Shown here in pieces: positions 12,001 to 24,000 of a stretch of DNA of 64,000 nt (position 1 is its first letter; each line of letters starts with the position of its first letter). Source of the stretch: an uncultured Gemmatimonadaceae bacterium (GTDB lineage: Bacteria > Gemmatimonadota > Gemmatimonadetes > Gemmatimonadales > Gemmatimonadaceae); contig CAWFQK010000004.1 of the NCBI GenBank assembly GCA_963817955.1, forward strand, positions 512,001 through 576,000, given 5' to 3'. The position numbers are program-made.

Positions 12001-15000
12001 GTGCGGTCGCGGCGATTGATGTCGTGCGGCGCTTGTATCCTCAAGAACAGCAGCTGCTGAGCGAACTGGTCTACCGTGCATGGACTGAAGCCGAGCGCGA
12101 TCTACGCGTGGAAACGATAGACGCCCATCTCGCGGCTGCGGGATGAGCGTCTATGGTCTGCGACACGGATGAGGCGAGATTCGAACTCGCGAGCGGCTTG
12201 CGCCGCCACACGCTTTCCAGGCGTGCGCCTTAAACCACTCGGCCACCCATCCAACAGCCATCTAACTTAGCCAGCCACAGCGACTTCTGACACCCTGTCG
12301 GGCGGTAATTCGGAATGCTGGTCGCGGTTCGCGGTCGCGGTTCGTGCTGCTTCCGCCTTTCGTGCCTCCCCGCGTCTAGCAAGCGCCGCCCGCAACGTGT
12401 CCTCGCGGGGTTTCTGGTACACCTCAACAATGGTCTTGTAGGAACTCCACCCACCGAGCGCCATGAGCTGCGCGGCAGGAAGGCCGTCGTTGTCGCTCGC
12501 AAACTTTCGCCGCAACGAATGCCAGCCCCTGCCCTTCACACGCGCGAGGCCGGCGCGTGTCTCCAGCTGCGTCCACCAGCGTTGGAACTGGCGCCGCGAA
12601 ATCGGTTCCTCTGGGTCGAGCGGCGACGGGAATACCCAGCCATCCCCGATTCGGGATTCTTCACGCCTCATTCGCTTGAGCGCATCAACGTGCTCCGGTA
12701 ACAGCGGCGTGCCGTGCTCTCGCTTCATCTTGTCCCACGCTCTACCCCAAACAATCCGGCCGGCGGATAGATCAACTTCGCTCCAACGCAACCGCGCGAC
12801 GGAGATTGAGCGATGGCCGGTCTCGTGTTCCAGATACAAATACAGTTCGACTTGCGGTCCCAGCGCCTTCGCCGCCACGCAGAGCGCATCATACTCGGCG
12901 TCGGTCGTCATCGGCTGACGCGGGCTCGACTCTACCGGAATCGGAAATTTCCGAAACGGATTGCGATCGAGCAGCGGCCGACCGTTGATACGGACCGTCT
13001 CCGCCCAGTTGCACACGGCCATGAGAAACTTTAGATCATAGCCGATCATGCGATCCCGCACGCCACCCTCCGTCTTTCGCCCGCTGGGCCTCAGGCGTCC
13101 GGCGCGTCGCTCGCTGATGAAACGGTCCCAATCCCGCCGGTCCAGATCAACGACGCGAGCGGATGTCCCCCAACACGACTCAAACAGGCCGCGCGCCGTG
13201 CGATCATGCCGAGCTTTCGCCGCCGTTTTTCGCGGCGTAACTTCGCGCAGGTAGTTGTCAAACAGCTCCTTCACGGTCAGCTCATCGCTGCGCGGCGCTT
13301 CCTCTTTGCGGAGTGCTGTCGCCAATTCCTCGGCGGCCAGCTTCCCGCGTTCGCGGTCGGCGTGGTGCAATGACCGACTGCGCCGCTTCCCGTCTTCGTC
13401 CTGATACTCCAACATCAACGTGCCGTCGCGCGGGTGCGGATACAGGCGTACTCGGTTGCAACCTTTCTCGCCTGTGATGAAGCTCCGTGCCCGCGTTGGC
13501 TTCCTCGAACGTGTCACCGTGCGCCTCCTACGTGGCGGGTGATGACAGCTCGCGCGATCTCTGCGCGTTCAATGTGCAAGGCCGGCGCCGATGGAGGCAA
13601 GGCGGCGCCCGGCTTCTTCGGCAGATCGCTTCGACGCACGCGCGGCGCATTTCGACGGCCGGCGTTCGGAATCTTGCCGCGCGAAATCTCGCGTCCGAGA
13701 TGGTCAACGCTATAACCGCTCTCGGTCGCCGCCGCTGCGAGTGTCAGCAAGCCCCCTGCATTCCGGCGGAGCGCCTCGTCTAGTTCATTCGCCGCACTCT
13801 CCAGCGCAATGGCCGCGCCCTCCGCCGCCGCCCAGCGGCGGAGGGCGGCGGCTCGATTGCGCCACAAGCCGGCTAGTTCTTGTGTAGAGGGTTCAGCGTA
13901 CTGCGTCTGCTGAGGTTCGCGTTTCACGATTCGTCATAGCTCTCCTCGTTCCGTTGAATGGTGCGCGTCGGCCACCGTGTCACCGACGCGCGTAAGAATT
14001 GACGTGCCTCGGTGGCACGGACACACTGGAAGCCTACAGCTCGTAGAGCCGTAGGTCATTCATGATGTCAAACAGACCATCGCGCACATCGGCTTCCGGC
14101 CCACCGGGGCTCTTCTGGATACGCTCATCGTGCCGCGTCGCACGTTCAATCACCTGTACCTCTTCCTCGGTAAGCGAGATGACCAGTTCGCCGCTGAAGA
14201 AGAGCCCCAGGGAATCGGCGTGTAGTCTGTCTAGTAACCGCATCCGACGTGTCGCCTCTGCGTACTTCCGGCGGGCGTGCATCGAGGCACGGGGTTATGA
14301 TAGGACCGTGGAACCAATTGCCGGAGTGCAGGGGGCGCCGCTGCGATGACCATCATACGAGATCCTCGATGCTCTCGGGGGCTTGTGCCGGTGGCACTTC
14401 CTTCCCGGCGCGATACTTGTCCCGATGCTCCACGACGTAACCGGCCCTCAGCGCAGCTTCGAGCGCGCGGGTTTGACGACTACGGTCCGTCTTCCCATCT
14501 CGGATGAACAGGCCCGGTTGCTGTGCGCGCATTTCGGTGAACAGTTCGCTCTTTGTTACGCCGTGCGTAGGGCTGGCGATTGAACGAATCGCGATACCGG
14601 CCGCGATAGCGCAGCGAGCGCCAATCGTCGCATCGTCCGCCAACACGGGGGCCACACCCTCTTTCAGCACGCCGGGCGCGACGAGATGCCACCGAAATTC
14701 CGTATCTGACTTGCCGCCTTTGTTCTTCTTCACGCGCATCGTAATGTTGTCGTCCTTCTTCAAGACGGTGGCCTCCCAGTCGAACGCTCCTTCAATGACA
14801 CTTGAGCCCCGAGCCCTGCCCGAGTCCGAGACCGCGGAGTGATGCACGACGAGCACGAAGGCGTTTGCCATTCGCGACAGCGACTGGAGCGTTGCCATTA
14901 CGACGCCCATCTCTTGCGCGTTGTTCTCCTCGCCGGTTGTCGCGCCCTTGAGCACATCCACCACCAGAGCGACCGGTTCAGGAGCACCACGCGCGCGAAG

Positions 15001-21000: not shown

Positions 21001-24000
21001 GTCTGGCCGCTCCGGGAGTGACCCGGACGCGCCGCTCTACTGCTTGCAGCTCGGATCACGGAAGCGAACAACCGTCCCCGAGAGCACAGCGCGGTGGTCC
21101 ACGTCAACACCTCCGTTCACGCCAGGGCTCACGCCCTCAATCGTCTGCTCCGACGCAACCCGGATGACCGCATCGCCGCCGAGTTCGCGCGCGCTACTCC
21201 GCATAGCGTCTGCGAGATCATCTGGTTTCGTCCAAAACGTGCGGGGGCGAACACTCACGAGACCGACTTCATCGAACGCGCACCGGGGAAGCTGCGCATT
21301 GTAAAGCGTTACGGGAGCGTCAGCCGGCCGCGCATCTGCCGCTGTGGGTGCAAGCCGCGTCACGCGCACAGCCGGGGCGCACGCCACGGCCAACAGTAAC
21401 AATCCGAACACGCGTAGACGCATTGTCGCTCCAGTCAATGTCAGAGTTGTTGGATCACTCATCCCGAACTCAGACGAACGTACGAAGACCAACGCAACCG
21501 GCAGTGGACTGCGACACGAGAAGTTGCGGTATCTTGGCGTCTTTCCGCGACGCGGCCTTAGTGGCGCCGCGTCTTGCCACGCCAGGGGCCTTCCCGTCGC
21601 GGCCTTCACACCCCCGCGCAGGATGATTACGACGCGGCACAATGGGAAGTAGCTGGGGCTGCGCAGACCGGTCGGAACGACAAAGCCCGCTTGCTCAGGT
21701 GAGGTTCACCTTGGCAAGCGGGCTGTGTAGGTCTTGGTCGCAGTTGTGGTCGCGGTTCGTTCAGGAAAGGCCCGGCATCGAGCAACAAAGGTCCGTCAGA
21801 TCGCGCGAGCTGTCAGAGTGAAAACCGACAACTTGCCGGACTTTGCTACCCCAGTCCATTCACTTTCCAGGCGTGCGCCTTAAACCACTCGGCCACCCAT
21901 CCTTGAAGGGTCGTTCCTACCTTCCCACAAACTGCAACCGGCGCGATCGGCTCTGACATGCCGCCGCGCCGGTTGGCCATACACATCGAGGCGGACAGGG
22001 AGAGATTCGAACTCTCGATACCGGGTTCACCGGTATGCCGGTTTTCGAGACCGGTGCCTTCAACCGCTCGGCCACCTGTCCGAGGCAGCCAACAAGATTA
22101 GGCCGTAGATGCTGATGTGTCAACGATTTGACGTCGCGCACGAAAGAAGCGCGTCAACATCTCGGCCGATTCGTCACTGCGCACGCCGGCAAGCACCTCG
22201 GGACGATGATTGAGACGCGGGTGGCGCAACAGGTCGGTGACCGACCCCGCCATGCCCGCTTTATCGTCCCATGCGCCGAACACTACCCGTGCGACGCGTG
22301 ACAACACGATCGCCCCGGCGCACATGGCACACGGCTCGAGCGTGATATACACCGTGCAGTCGTCGAGTCGCCAGGCTCCGAGCGCGGCCGCAGCGGCGCG
22401 GATCACCAGCGCCTCGGCGTGTGCGGTTGGATCGTGATCACGGACCGTGCGATTGCCGGCGCGCGCCAACACCTCGCCGTTGCGCACCATCACGGCTCCC
22501 ACCGGCACTTCAGCCGCCGCTTCCGCCGCGCGCGCTTCTGCGAGCGCGAGACTCATCCAGCGATCATCGTCGGGGCGAGGAATCATCCCTCGAATATCAC
22601 CCACATCAGCCGGCGCCGCTACGCGCCGACCGTTTCCTTCGCCGGCTCGTTTGAGAACTCTAGTTTGCCGGTCCCGTCCGGACGCACGATGATCGCGTCT
22701 CCGTCGCCAAATTTGCCCTCGAGCACTGCCATCGCCAGCGGATTCTGGATGAGCCGCTGAATGGAGCGCTTCAGTGGACGCGCGCCGAACGCGGGGTCGT
22801 AGCCGTCCTCGGCGAGCAGACGTTTCGCCTCGGGCGTGACGACGATCGTCATCTTTCGGCCCTCGAGCAATTGCTCCAACCGCTTGAGCTGGAGGTCCAC
22901 AATCTTCTCGATCTGCTCGGTAGCCAGCGGATGGAAGATGATTATGTCATCGACGCGGTTGAGGAACTCCGGCTTGAACTGCTGCCGCAGCGTCGCCATC
23001 ACCTGCGTCTCAACGAGCGCCCAATCACCGCGCGCGTGCTCGAGGATGAACATCGAGCCCAGGTTGGACGTCATGATGATCACCGTGTTGCGGAAATCGA
23101 CCGTGCGCCCCTGCGAATCGGTGAGCCGTCCGTCGTCCAGAATCTGCAGCAGGATATTGAAGACATCGGGGTGGGCCTTTTCGATCTCGTCAAAGAGGAT
23201 CACCGAGTACGGGCGGCGGCGAACCGCTTCCGTCAGTTGGCCTCCCTCTTCGTATCCGATGTAACCCGGCGGCGCGCCGATCAGTCGCGCCACGGCGTGC
23301 TTCTCCATGTACTCCGACATGTCGATGCGTACCATCGCGTGCTCGTCGTCGAAGAGGAACTCCGCGAGCGCACGCGCCGTCTCTGTCTTGCCGACACCAG
23401 TTGGCCCGAGAAAGATGAACGACCCGATCGGTCGATGGGGGTCCTGCAGTCCGGCGCGCGAGCGGCGCACCGCGTTCGCCACGGCGCGCGCGGCTTCTTC
23501 CTGCCCGATCACGCGTTTGGACAATTCCTCGTCGAGCTTCGTGAGGCGCTCGCGCTCGCTCTCGAGCATTCGTGTCACAGGAATGCCCGTCCAGCGCGCC
23601 ACCACTTCGGCAATGTCTTCGGCCGTGACTTCTTCCTTCAGGAATTGCGGGCGGCCGTCCTGGCTAGCGAGCTTCTGCTCCGTTTCATGCATGCGGCGCT
23701 CGAGCTCCGGAATGCGCCCGTACGTGATCTCGGCCGCCCGGTTCAAGTCGCCGCGACGCGTCGCCTGCTCTGCCTCAATGCGCGCCTGGTCGATCTCCTG
23801 CTTGATCTTGCCGACACCGCCCAGCATCTCCTTTTCCTGCTGCCACTGCGCCTTCATCGCCTGCGAGTGCTCGCGCGACTCCGACAGCTCACGTTCGAGT
23901 TCCTCGCGACGCTCCACGGCACCGCGGTCCTTCTCTTTCTGCAGCGCTCGGCGTTCGATCTCGAGCTGCATGATACGACGCTCGACTTCGTCGATTACCT

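What a model noticed while it worked through the whole genome (the two positions that open the first line are those of the whole stretch)
12213..21902. 9.7-kb integrase-primase-TerS island in tRNA-Ser: candidate phage satellite in Gemmatimonadota
A 9.69-kb element bounded by a perfect 40-bp direct repeat (one copy inside tRNA-Ser-GGA) encodes a tyrosine integrase, an 808-aa primase/helicase (PriCT_2-AAA_25), a Gin-like invertase, a repressor-like HTH and a small terminase subunit. It has no capsid, portal, large terminase or tail gene, and no prophage was seen in the genome. Boldest reading: a PICI/P4-like phage satellite that redirects a helper phage's packaging with its own TerS. New would be a satellite for Gemmatimonadota, a phylum with almost no known phages.
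Evidence so far: Gene table. The 40-bp repeat 524213-524252 equals 533863-533902 at 100%. PHROGs: integrase 2e-38, DNA primase/polymerase 1.6e-26 and 7e-20, DNA invertase 1.6e-29, repressor 3e-4, terminase small subunit 5.4e-10; 7 of 12 ORFs have no match. A Pfam keyword scan finds no capsid/portal/TerL family in the genome. The Sf6_terminase family occurs in 20 of 2019 phylum genomes.
(Added by a program. Inside this text positions count along the whole contig: contig position 512,001 is position 1 of the stretch shown here. "Call 12" and the like, gene names such as g00115 and contig names such as C1 are that model's own, and its searches are not shown. The text may have been shortened before it was handed on; [...] marks where a part breaks off. 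The agent that wrote the report below was given it as the finding of a first reader that could run no searches.)

Follow-up and report, generated by a model that had tools for sequence, protein, structure and literature searches.

The report
Satellite-like island rebuilding a tRNA front half
A 9.65-kb mobile island sits in a serine tRNA gene and carries its own integration and replication genes plus a genuine phage small-terminase gene, but no virus-particle genes, so it most likely travels in a helper phage's capsids; unusually, it replaces the front half of the tRNA, not the back half.

Summary
An exact 40-bp direct repeat (12213-12252 = 21863-21902) bounds a 9.65-kb insertion. Four of seven relatives inspected have the empty site, with tRNA-Ser(CGA) 59-189 nt upstream of an intact tRNA-Ser(GGA).

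The island encodes a tyrosine integrase, two HTH_17 (Xis/AlpA-like) proteins, a PrimPol-PriCT_2-AAA_25 primase-helicase, a small serine recombinase, a Cro/CI-type HTH and a TerS. No TerL, portal or capsid match was found in the island or in the 94%-complete genome.

- Pfam scores it above the curated cut-off.
- The predicted fold matches Sf6 TerS best.
- 109 of 162 homologous loci have a TerL just downstream.
- The island's TerS falls in a subclade whose three members with enough context all lack TerL.

A sister element in a metagenome contig (L099) shares the gene core and a conserved TGCGACA repeat array.

The repeat is nucleotides 1-40, the 5' half, of the only tRNA-Ser(GGA) gene, and the integrase stop codon lies 14 nt upstream of it. 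Of 15 tRNA-adjacent relatives of this integrase, 14 use the usual 3' side.

Best reading: a PICI-type (Type B) phage satellite. This is inferred; excision, helper and packaging are untested.

The parts
12166..12252 (-). Intact, single-copy tRNA-Ser(GGA). It is a hybrid: nt 1-40 come from the element and the rest from the host.
   Evidence: ARAGORN; Rfam tRNA 57.7 bits; the only GGA serine tRNA among 51 tRNAs in the genome.
12213..12252 (.). attR core: the 40-bp repeat copy inside the tRNA. It covers tRNA nt 1-40 and ends 1 nt past the anticodon loop.
   Evidence: Exact match to 21863-21902; position read.
12267..13517 (-). Tyrosine integrase, 416 aa. Its stop codon lies 14 nt upstream of the tRNA 5' end, on the same strand.
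   Evidence: PF00589 57.3 bits, phrog_1 2e-38; sequence read.
13514..13927 (-). 137-aa protein with a weak HTH_17 match. Its stop overlaps the integrase start (GTGA). Candidate excisionase.
   Evidence: HTH_17 E 0.0037, below the cut-off; homologous HTH stretch upstream of the related integrases in G017 and G005; overlap read from ORF coordinates.
14034..14282 (-). 82-aa protein of unknown function.
   Evidence: Positive codon-usage score; no family match.
14353..16779 (-). Primase-helicase, 808 aa: an N-terminal PrimPol/PriCT_2 part like P4-family primases, fused to an AAA_25 (RepA/DnaB-like) ATPase.
   Evidence: A DID motif, conserved His residues and a GK Walker A motif are invariant in alignment A1.
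17062..17331 (-). HTH_17 protein, 89 aa, AlpA/excisionase-type regulator at the head of the primase operon.
   Evidence: HTH_17 26.2 bits (cut-off 27); phrog_66 1.1e-6; phrog_7506 2.5e-5; 45% identical homologue in L099.
17429..17457 (-). Promoter-like site TTGACC-17-TATATT facing the alpA-primase operon.
   Evidence: 10 of 12 consensus matches. This is a consensus match only.
17520..17710 (.). Array of TTGCGACA/TGCGACA repeats in both orientations, in the least GC-rich stretch of the island. Candidate replication origin iterons or operator array.
   Evidence: 5 of the window's 7 exact TTGCGACA matches lie in 17580-17698. L099 has 9 TGCGACA copies in 6464-6627 at the same relative position, and 0 of 100 shuffles reach its total of 12. 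Sequence read; GC 0.582.
17813..18526 (-). Small serine recombinase (resolvase/invertase type), about 237 aa from the MPNGAF start. The open frame runs on to 18691.
   Evidence: Resolvase 93.3 bits, phrog_125 1.1e-29; 44% identical 237-aa homologue in L099; start inferred.
18724..18906 (-). Degraded duplicate of the serine recombinase N-terminus (aa 60-120).
   Evidence: tblastn 79% identity over 61 aa; DNA repeat 18347-18525 / 18739-18917 at 73%.
19122..19379 (-). Cro/CI-type HTH_26 protein (85-aa frame). Candidate master repressor.
   Evidence: HTH_26 46.3 bits, phrog_3 5.7e-5; homologue in L099.
19396..19451 (.). Divergent switch region. It holds the palindrome AGTAACGCTAGCGGTACT and a second ACGCTAGCG copy that overlaps a rightward TTGACA-17-TACTGT promoter-like site.
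   Evidence: Read directly; inverted repeats; all 3 window matches of ACGCTAGCG lie here (3 of 100 shuffles reach 3).
19916..20328 (+). Two small ORFs (19916-20116 and 20116-20328). Their ends abut or overlap the next start, and they lead into terS.
   Evidence: Positive codon-usage scores. No family match apart from a weak winged-HTH hit at 18.9 bits, below the cut-off.
20325..20852 (+). Small terminase subunit (TerS), 175 aa, Sf6 type.
   Evidence: PF20901 36.4 bits (cut-off 27), phrog_1482 5.2e-10; AlphaFold2 model pLDDT 79.8, with the six best PDB matches all Sf6 gp1; TerL lies downstream of homologues.
20892..20944 (.). Strong hairpin (24-nt arms, 92% complementary) between the convergent terS and lipoprotein genes. 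Probably a bidirectional terminator.
   Evidence: The function is inferred.
21037..21423 (-). Predicted lipoprotein of about 128 aa (signal peptide plus LLAVAC lipobox). Conserved accessory gene.
   Evidence: Translation; 50% identical homologue in L099; nearest Atlas clusters are hypothetical or lipoprotein families, score 0.91.
21825..21839 (-). Terminator-like hairpin with a T run, just downstream of the displaced tRNA half.
   Evidence: This is a consensus match only.
21863..21902 (.). attL: the displaced 5' half (nt 1-40) of the original tRNA-Ser(GGA), 87 nt downstream of tRNA-Ser(CGA).
   Evidence: In relatives, homology to the tRNA operon breaks off at 21861.
21992..22081 (-). Context: tRNA-Ser(CGA), preceded by TTGACA-17-TAATCT. 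This is the presumed native promoter of the two-tRNA operon.
   Evidence: promoter read.

Best explanation
The island is an integrated, self-replicating phage satellite of the PICI type.

Shown by sequence:
- It inserted by site-specific recombination within nt 1-40 of tRNA-Ser(GGA).
- It carries its own copy of the tRNA's 5' half, so the single-copy tRNA is rebuilt next to the integrase gene.
- The host's original 5' half is left 9.65 kb away, next to tRNA-Ser(CGA).

Inferred life cycle:
1. A Cro/CI-type repressor holds a divergent switch shut.
2. A helper phage or another signal lifts repression.
3. The integrase, with an HTH_17 excisionase, cuts the element out.
4. The AlpA-like regulator turns on the primase-helicase, which replicates the circle from the TGCGACA repeat array.
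5. The small serine recombinase may resolve multimers.
6. The island's TerS recognises island DNA and recruits the helper's large terminase, so island DNA is packaged by headful into helper capsids.

While the island is integrated, transcription of the tRNA must come from the island itself, either by read-through from the integrase gene or from a conserved TAAGTTA box. The native promoter now lies 9.65 kb away.
For: Precise ends and empty sites:
- The 40-bp repeat is exact.
- 4 of the 7 relatives' sites that I fetched are uninterrupted.

Genuine TerS:
- Pfam scores it above the curated cut-off.
- The six best structural matches are all Sf6 TerS chains (probability 1.00, target TM 0.63-0.65, E 2e-3 to 1.4e-2).
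- In 24 of 27 viral loci examined, the next large ORF matches Terminase_6N at E <= 0.001; 21 of those are above the cut-off.
- With a TerL profile of my own, 109 of 162 TerS-bearing sources have TerL within 3 kb downstream.

No structural genes:
- No TerL, portal or capsid family matched in the island or in the genome.

A conserved element type:
- Metagenome locus L099 has integrase, primase-AAA_25, HTH_17, Cro, serine recombinase, TerS (55% identity) and the lipoprotein homologue. It also sits just upstream of a tRNA-Ser and has no TerL, capsid or portal match.
- The same TGCGACA array lies in the same place in both elements.
- A 13.3-kb contig appears to hold both a primase homologue (49%) and a TerS homologue (72%). 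This is inferred only from the shared contig length.

TerS tree:
- The island falls in a 16-row clade (SH-aLRT 87). Its 3 rows with enough context all lack TerL, and no TerL-linked row lies inside the clade.
- Among its nearest outgroup rows is a TerS-TerL-portal prophage region in a genome of the same genus, G017.

Core genes look intact:
- Primase DxD and His motifs and a Walker A motif are present.
- The integrase catalytic domain is covered over 7-168 of 172 profile positions.
- TerS aligns full-length with 13 homologues.

Definition:
- The gene set meets 4 of the 5 PICI core components, with no forbidden component, as defined in PMC10085698 (passages read).
Against: - No direct evidence of excision, circular form, replication or packaging. 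No sequencing run could be listed for reads.
- No helper is known. The genome has no prophage by the families tested, and no isolated phage among 50,697 records has a TerS match.
- The tree support around the TerL-less clade is modest (83-91, not starred). It is a quick tree on 149 columns, and only 3 members have usable context.
- No capsid-size or interference gene is recognisable. Eight proteins or candidate ORFs have no function assigned.
- Several stretches score poorly for coding (17332-17812, 19460-19915), and one recombinase fragment is a pseudogene. Some decay has therefore occurred.
- The ends of L099 could not be found. Its 573-aa gene directly after terS is unidentified, so a very divergent TerL there is not excluded.
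- The element family is rare. Two scans of 185,579 species genomes found no relative.
Confidence: 0.55

Rival explanations
1. A stabilised remnant or derivative of a temperate phage. It can still integrate, excise and perhaps replicate, but it is not packaged. On this reading terS is a leftover, or has been kept as a DNA-binding regulator.
For: - cro, the serine recombinase and terS are phage-derived. A viral contig (L075) has TerS, then a resolvase, then TerL.
- There is a pseudogene fragment of the recombinase.
- Several stretches score poorly for coding.
- No helper is known.
Against: - The sister element L099 keeps the same core, also with no TerL, capsid or portal match, at 41-62% protein identity. 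This implies long-term maintenance of this reduced gene set.
- TerS is full-length and conserved among 13 close homologues.
- The att repeats are exact.
- The island is absent from the 7 relatives' sites inspected, which points to recent mobility.
Confidence: 0.25
2. An integrative, plasmid-like element that spreads by another route, such as conjugative mobilisation, vesicles or transformation. This would resemble cargo tycheposons or 'minimal hitcher' genomic islands.
For: - It has an integrase and an autonomous primase-helicase replicon with a repeat array.
- The AAA_25 ATPase is of the RepA type (recalled knowledge of the family).
- Tycheposons with the same hallmark set (tyrosine recombinase, xis, primase/helicase, regulator, small serine recombinase) were enriched in vesicles, according to passages of bioRxiv 10.1101/2020.12.28.424599.
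Against: - No relaxase, coupling protein or type IV secretion match among the 38 ORFs scanned.
- Only 2 plasmid records match the primase, and only its N-terminal domain.
- The one gene with a clear phage-particle function, terS, is conserved in the family.
Confidence: 0.12
3. The repeat is not an att site. On this reading the 'island' is ordinary variable DNA between a tRNA gene and a chance or duplicated tRNA fragment.
For: Other genomes of the genus (G001, G017, G005) also have 0.65-3.7 kb of unrelated DNA between the two tRNAs.
Against: - The repeat is 40 of 40 identical, starts exactly at tRNA nt 1 and ends at the anticodon loop.
- An integrase gene abuts it.
- Relatives' homology breaks within 2 nt of the repeat edge.
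Confidence: 0.03

Closest known systems
PICIs with their own TerS (SaPI type; 'Type B' PICI in SatelliteFinder, de Sousa et al. 2023, PMC10085698, passages read)
   Same: - About 10 kb, flanked by att repeats.
- Integrase, AlpA/Stl-type regulators around a divergent switch, a primase-replicase with a nearby repeat array, and a TerS.
- No tail, holin, portal or TerL match.
   Different: - No sequence relationship beyond generic domains.
- The replication genes sit in the integrase-side operon, not in the terS-side operon.
- It carries a small serine recombinase.
- The primase is a PrimPol-AAA_25 fusion.
- The host phylum lies outside the Proteobacteria and Firmicutes that held more than 99.9% of the 1,436 PICIs in that survey.
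- It inserts at the 5' half of a tRNA.
- Helper dependence is untested.
PICI-like tycheposons of Prochlorococcus (Hackl et al., bioRxiv 10.1101/2020.12.28.424599, passages read)
   Same: The hallmark set listed there is also present here: tyrosine recombinase, xis, primase/helicase, regulator, small serine recombinase, and terS in the PICI-like type. Both also have a full and a partial tRNA at the ends.
   Different: Whether the integrase belongs to the tycheposon recombinase clade was not tested. Host and habitat differ. Which tRNA half tycheposons duplicate was not stated in the passages I saw.
Satellite P4
   Same: The N-terminal ~330 aa of the primase are 41-50% identical to proteins that sources label 'P4 family phage/plasmid primase'. 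Both have an integrase next to a tRNA.
   Different: - The helicase half is AAA_25, not the D5_N/DUF5906 (SF3) type of those homologues.
- No Psu, Sid, Delta or Eps match.
- It has a TerS. From recall, P4 has none and uses cos sites.
PICMI of Vibrionaceae (bioRxiv 10.1101/2023.07.18.549517, passages read)
   Same: Minimal set of integrase, AlpA and primase. A small gene overlaps the integrase start by a 4-nt ATGA-type junction; here it is GTGA, with a weak HTH_17 match. No capsid-remodelling gene, so packaging as concatemers is plausible.
   Different: PICMI has no terS. It integrates at the end of fis, not in a tRNA.
Anticodon-loop class of tRNA-integrating tyrosine integrases (Williams 2002; recalled, the paper is not held)
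   Same: The identity block ends at the anticodon loop, and the symmetric anticodon stem flanks the likely crossover.
   Different: The element supplies the 5' part of the tRNA (nt 1-40), not the 3' part. Among related integrases, 14 of 15 tRNA-adjacent loci have the usual 3' geometry. The Islander algorithm does accept '5' fragment upstream' islands (PMC4383910, passage read), so this configuration is anticipated in the literature. I could not find how often it occurs.

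Membership tests
PICI (SatelliteFinder definition, PMC10085698) | Integrase | tested here: met
   PF00589 57.3 bits, phrog_1 2e-38.
PICI (SatelliteFinder definition, PMC10085698) | Regulation module (homologue of alpA, merR or stl) | tested here: inconclusive
   HTH_17 protein at 26.2 bits (cut-off 27), with phrog_66 and phrog_2474 'MerR-like' hits, plus a Cro/CI HTH_26 at 46 bits. SatelliteFinder's own profiles were not available.
PICI (SatelliteFinder definition, PMC10085698) | Primase-replicase module | tested here: met
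   808-aa PriCT_2 + AAA_25 protein; phrog_906 and phrog_1156; catalytic motifs conserved.
PICI (SatelliteFinder definition, PMC10085698) | Capsid morphogenesis gene (mostly in Proteobacterial PICIs) | tested here: not met
   No match among 38 ORFs. The paper classes elements that lack it as Type B, so its absence is allowed.
PICI (SatelliteFinder definition, PMC10085698) | Small terminase subunit | tested here: met
PICI (SatelliteFinder definition, PMC10085698) | No forbidden components (tail, holin, portal, head-tail connectors) | tested here: met
   None matched in Pfam or PHROGs. Eight proteins or candidate ORFs remain unidentified.
PICI (functional definition) | Induction by, and packaging in the particles of, a helper phage | not testable with these tools
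   No sequencing run could be listed. No helper is known.
P4-like satellites | Psu, Delta, Sid, Eps plus an alpha primase-helicase | tested here: not met
   Only the primase N-terminal domain is shared. No other P4 component matched.
Capsid-forming PICI (cfPICI) | Own capsid, portal, head-tail adaptors and TerL | tested here: not met
   None in the island or the genome.
Intact prophage | Virion, lysis and large-terminase genes | tested here: not met
   Same searches as above. The island is 9.65 kb.
Integrative conjugative or mobilisable element | Relaxase, oriT, coupling protein or type IV secretion genes | tested here: not met
   No such family among the ORFs scanned. oriT was not searched.
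Tycheposons | Membership of the deep-branching tycheposon tyrosine-recombinase clade | not tested
   No reference sequences were at hand. Only the hallmark gene set was compared.
tRNA-integrating islands (Islander signature, PMC4383910) | Full tDNA plus a displaced same-orientation end fragment, with an integrase gene between them | tested here: met
   The 5' fragment lies upstream of the tDNA, a configuration that Islander's filter accepts.
Usual tRNA att geometry (3' part regenerated) | The element supplies the 3' part of the tRNA, with the integrase gene convergent on the tRNA 3' end | tested here: not met
   The repeat is tRNA nt 1-40, and the integrase is co-directional, 14 nt upstream. 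14 of 15 related loci show the usual geometry.

The most novel reading that the evidence does not exclude
This is one member of an undescribed family of phage satellites in this phylum (reported as Gemmatimonadota). It captures headful-packaging phages through its own Sf6-type TerS. It has also turned its attachment site around, so that it rebuilds the front half of the host's only tRNA-Ser(GGA) and places that tRNA under the satellite's own transcription (an integrase-tRNA unit). While the satellite is resident, decoding of UCC and UCU would then depend on satellite-driven expression. The tRNA locus would also be open to invasion from both sides, with relatives of the same integrase family using the 3' side.
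Probability: 0.2. Interest if true: 0.7.

Novelty: new variant of a known kind. Interest (0 to 1): 0.5.

Why it matters
If the element is a working satellite, it extends PICI-type parasitism of phages to a soil phylum with very few characterised phages. It also gives a concrete pair to test: this island and the TerS-TerL-portal prophage lineage in a genome of the same genus (G017).

The 5'-half attachment site has a separate interest. It shows how an integrase lineage that normally rebuilds the 3' end of a tRNA can work in the opposite orientation, presumably by using the symmetry of the anticodon stem-loop. One consequence is testable: the single-copy tRNA is cut off from its native promoter and must be transcribed from island DNA.

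Both points are predictions from sequence. Similar int-primase-TerS islands have been noted in other phyla in this scan, so the satellite architecture itself is not surprising.

Tried and rejected
Searches that led nowhere:
- The look-up of sequencing runs on 12100-22050: none was listed (no RNA holder listed), so reads could not be checked for attP or attB junctions.
- Two scans of genome contigs, one with the TerS alignment and one with the primase alignment, found pattern hits but no confirmed relative.
- The viral-contig scan with the primase alignment gave only hits centred on the N-terminal primase domain (two also weakly match the AAA_25 part), with no synteny.
- TerS against 50,697 isolated phage records: no match at E <= 1e-3.
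- L099's att repeat: no second copy of its tRNA-Ser(GCT) 5' or 3' half within the 20.5 kb held. More of that record could not be fetched under the size rule, so L099's ends and its 5'-half status remain open.
- The 573-aa protein after terS in L099: no Pfam match at E <= 1, no PDB sequence match at E <= 1, no PADLOC match, and only a weak phrog of unknown function.
- PADLOC on 8 island proteins: nothing.
- My TerL profile on 11 phylum loci carrying PF20901 hit only G017. The flanks were only 1.5 kb and other TerL families may apply, so this is uninformative.
- orf70 against the small ORF upstream of terS in L019: no similarity.

Literature:
- 'phage satellite' + Gemmatimonadota: 0 papers.
- satellite + Gemmatimonad + PICI: 0 papers.
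- Gemmatimonad + prophage + terminase: 12 papers, none about satellites judging by title and abstract.
- Phrases containing 5' cannot be searched, because the prime sign breaks the term. I therefore could not establish how often 5'-half tRNA integration is reported.
- Williams 2002 and Mageeney 2020 are not held.

Rejected ideas:
- A GC-content anomaly as evidence for an island. There is none.
- ORFs 17416-17910, 19476-19874, 19540-20070 and 20028-20267 as genes. Their codon-usage scores are strongly negative.

Full report
**1. Observation**

The window holds an exact 40-bp direct repeat, 12213-12252 = 21863-21902. extends it to 47 nt at 94% identity. ARAGORN and Rfam place tRNA-Ser(GGA) at 12166-12252 (-) and tRNA-Ser(CGA) at 21992-22081 (-).

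Reading the minus strand shows three things:
- The repeat starts exactly at nucleotide 1 of tRNA-Ser(GGA).
- It ends one base past the anticodon loop, at nucleotide 40.
- The second copy is a truncated 5' half lying 87 nt downstream of tRNA-Ser(CGA).

A DNA search of 30 relatives, followed by fetching 7 sites, gave these results:
- G006, G008, G009 and G020 have tRNA-Ser(CGA) followed after 59-189 nt by an intact tRNA-Ser(GGA). This is the empty site.
- G005, G017 and G001 have 0.65, 1.85 and 3.7 kb of other DNA between the two tRNAs.
- Homology of the relatives to the right flank stops at window position 21861, within 2 nt of the repeat edge.
- G006 also matches the left flank (11862-12065).

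The 9.65-kb segment is therefore a precise insertion into a two-tRNA operon. Its neighbours are the housekeeping genes tadA and clpB. Island GC (0.630) is like the window (0.642).

**2. Gene content**

I scanned 38 candidate ORFs against Pfam and PHROGs and scored them against the genome's own codon usage. From the tRNA rightwards:
- **Integrase**, 12267-13517 (-).
- **137-aa weak HTH_17 protein.** Its stop overlaps the integrase start.
- **82-aa protein** of unknown function.
- **808-aa primase-helicase.**
- **89-aa HTH_17 protein**, AlpA/excisionase type.
- **About 480 bp with poor coding signal.** It holds a promoter-like site and a cluster of TTGCGACA repeats.
- **Small serine recombinase**, with a degraded duplicate of its first ~60 codons upstream.
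- **Cro/CI-type HTH_26 protein.**
- **Divergent region.** It holds two ACGCTAGCG-centred palindromic sites, one of which overlaps a TTGACA-17-TACTGT promoter-like site.
- **Two small ORFs** whose ends abut or overlap the next start.
- **TerS**, 20325-20852 (+).
- **A strong hairpin.**
- **Predicted lipoprotein** on the minus strand.
- **Terminator-like hairpin** next to the displaced tRNA half.

No relaxase, TerL, portal, capsid, tail or lysis family matched.

**3. Is the TerS real?**

Four lines say it is sound.
- **Pfam.** PF20901 scores 36.4 bits against a curated cut-off of 27.
- **Structure.** An AlphaFold2 model built on 14 sequences (pLDDT 79.8) finds Sf6 TerS gp1 chains as its six best PDB matches. 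Foldseek gives probability 1.00, target-normalised TM 0.63-0.65 and 24-25% identity. The E-values of 2e-3 to 1.4e-2 are borderline, and the next match has E 0.74.
- **Genomic context, Pfam check.** The viral-contig scan found 207 relatives. I picked 29 of the 80 returned loci, and 27 of them had a large ORF after terS. In 24 of those 27 that ORF matched Terminase_6N at E <= 0.001, 21 of them above the cut-off.
- **Genomic context, own profile.** With a TerL profile built from those genes, 109 of 162 TerS-bearing sources have TerL within 3 kb downstream. Seven have none despite at least 3 kb of downstream sequence: the window, L099, L019 and its duplicate L102, L061, L065 and L154. The other 46 are too short to tell. 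The viral and metagenome sets overlap, so these are not 162 independent elements.

**4. Is the TerL-less state a property of a lineage?**

I built a quick IQ-TREE tree of 105 distinct TerS sequences (149 columns; the careful search did not finish).
- The island falls in a 16-row clade (SH-aLRT 87) with L099, L019, two short loci and 11 protein-only homologues.
- The three rows with usable context all lack TerL, and no TerL-linked row lies inside the clade.
- Among the nearest rows outside are L103 (TerL-linked) and L186.
- L186 comes from G017, a genome of the same genus. There a 37%-identical TerS is followed by TerL (phrog_2, 2.5e-35) and a portal (phrog_1216, 6e-111).

Support values are modest and the sample is small, so this is suggestive only.

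**5. A sister element**

Metagenome locus L099 (TerS 55% identical) has the following order:
- gltX;
- tRNA-Ser(GCT) on the minus strand;
- an integrase ending about 100 nt upstream of that tRNA's 5' end;
- two small ORFs;
- an 823-aa AAA_25 primase-helicase (41% identical over the C-terminal part);
- an HTH_17 homologue;
- a Cro homologue;
- a 237-aa serine recombinase (44%);
- TerS.

These are followed by a 573-aa unknown protein, a ParB-like/ART protein, the lipoprotein homologue and an OLD/AriA/GajA-like ATPase. No TerL, capsid or portal family matched.

The TGCGACA motif occurs 9 times in L099 6464-6627, at the same position relative to the HTH_17-primase operon. None of 100 shuffles reached its total of 12. 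In the window, 5 of 7 exact TTGCGACA matches lie in 17580-17698.

The L099 integrase is unrelated to ours by BLASTP, so the integration module has been exchanged. I could not find L099's far end.

The primase has only one full-length homologue in the 5.8-billion-protein collection (P0002, 49%). Other hits cover only the N-terminal ~40% and carry D5_N/DUF5906 helicase domains of the P4 type. P0002 and the TerS homologue P0024 (72%) share a longest-contig length of 13,316 bases. That suggests a third element, which I could not fetch.

**6. The attachment site**

tRNA-integrating islands usually carry the 3' part of the tRNA, with the integrase gene convergent on the tRNA 3' end (Williams 2002; recalled, not held). 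Here the element carries nt 1-40, and the integrase stop codon lies 14 nt upstream of the tRNA on the same strand.

The integrase family is common in the phylum sample, in 134 of 401 genomes. I examined the 29 best loci (40-48% identity, 1.5-kb flanks):
- 15 have a tRNA by the integrase 3' end.
- 14 of those 15 are conventional: tRNA-Ile x8, Ser(GGA) x3, Arg x2, Lys x1.
- One (L222, tRNA-Ala) is co-directional with the tRNA 5' end, as here.
- 14 have no tRNA within the flanks.

Relatives of this integrase thus target the very same tRNA-Ser(GGA) from its 3' side (G026, G028, G353, and also G005 and G017).

My inference is as follows. The crossover lies in the anticodon loop, and the core sites are the symmetric anticodon stem. 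An inversion of the core within attP then gave an element that inserts the other way round and so must rebuild the 5' half. The Islander algorithm explicitly accepts '5' fragment upstream' islands (PMC4383910, passage read), so the configuration is known in principle. I could not determine how often it occurs.

**7. Consequence for the tRNA**

tRNA-Ser(GGA) is single-copy among the 51 tRNAs of this genome. The only strong promoter-like site nearby, TTGACA-17-TAATCT, lies upstream of tRNA-Ser(CGA) (read). It is now 9.65 kb away and is followed by a terminator-like hairpin. The tRNA must therefore be transcribed from island DNA.

The ~35 nt upstream of the tRNA, including GGC-TAAGTTA across the integrase stop, are shared with G017 and G001 but not with the empty sites G006 and G008. 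This hints at a conserved element-borne signal. It also hints at earlier 5'-side insertions in those genomes, whose inter-tRNA DNA now holds cargo-like genes (PadR, MacB/FtsX, a Plug-domain fragment, DUF1801). This paragraph is inference.

**8. Helper**

The own genome (94% complete) has no match to seven TerL, portal or capsid Pfam families. It has none to my TerL profile or to the G017 portal either. No isolated phage among 50,697 records matches the TerS. A helper would have to be an infecting phage, and the G017 prophage lineage is the only concrete candidate type.

**9. Comparison with known systems**

By the SatelliteFinder definition (PMC10085698, passages read), the island has 4 of the 5 PICI core components and no forbidden one. 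That makes it a 'Type B' architecture.
- It is not a P4-like element, a cfPICI, an intact prophage or an ICE/IME by the features tested.
- Its hallmark set, including the small serine recombinase, matches the list given for PICI-like tycheposons.
- The small gene overlapping the integrase start recalls the IOLG gene of PICMI, which is needed for excision there.
- I found no paper on satellites in this phylum.
- Earlier notes of this scan report similar int-primase-TerS islands in several other phyla, and one integrase family that replaces a tRNA 5' half. These are unchecked leads, and they lower the surprise.

**10. Verdict**

This is a real, precisely bounded, apparently intact integrative element. 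It is most likely a PICI-type phage satellite (confidence 0.55). The alternatives are a non-packaged phage-derived replicon (0.25), an element that spreads by another route (0.12), or no element at all (0.03).

The satellite architecture is a new variant of a known kind. The 5'-half tRNA replacement, with its implied island-driven expression of a single-copy tRNA, is the most distinctive feature and is directly testable.

Noticed in passing
window 18724-18906 (-) and 18347-18525 / 18739-18917: A degraded duplicate of the first ~60 catalytic-domain codons of the serine recombinase lies just upstream of the intact gene (79% amino-acid identity, 73% DNA identity). It is a trace of an old duplication or module swap.
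   Followed up: partly
L186 (G017:C7) 14570-19649: A genome of the same genus carries a prophage-like block: TerS (37% identical to the island's, same phrog_1482), TerL (phrog_2) and portal (phrog_1216). It is a candidate helper-type phage lineage.
   Followed up: partly
L215 (G026), L217 (G028), L213 (G353), L016 (G005), L014 (G017): Integrases 34-47% identical to the island's sit on the 3' side of the same tRNA-Ser(GGA), in the usual convergent arrangement. This tRNA is therefore an insertion hotspot used from both ends by one integrase family.
   Followed up: partly
L015 (G001) 490-4207; L014 (G017) 2017-3867: Between the two serine tRNAs, these genomes hold 3.7 and 1.85 kb of cargo-like DNA (PadR, MacB/FtsX permease, lipocalin-like; Plug-domain fragment, DUF1801). 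About 35 nt next to the tRNA resemble the island's integrase stop region. These may be residues of earlier 5'-side insertions.
   Followed up: partly
L075 3972-7130 (viral contig): In a 39.8-kb viral contig, a TerS of this family is followed directly by a 336-aa resolvase (36% identical to the island's), with TerL further downstream. The TerS-serine recombinase linkage therefore also exists in phages.
   Followed up: no
L099 12287-13756 and 15357-17168: Downstream of terS, the sister element's locus encodes a ParB-like protein with a weak ART-PolyVal match and an OLD/AriA/GajA/PtuA-like ABC ATPase (PADLOC HEC-01A 3.7e-21). This may be anti-phage cargo. Whether these genes lie inside that element is unknown.
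   Followed up: partly
window 9000-11800: The left flank, on the 3' side of the tRNA, has low GC (0.54-0.60). Apart from a SpoIIM-like gene at 9508-9912, its ORFs have no Pfam match, and the flank has almost no DNA match in 30 relatives. It may be another variable region or an old island remnant.
   Followed up: partly
window 21675-21733: A 28-nt-arm inverted repeat (82% complementary) lies between the lipoprotein gene and attL. Its function is unknown; it could be a terminator or an integrase arm or accessory site.
   Followed up: no
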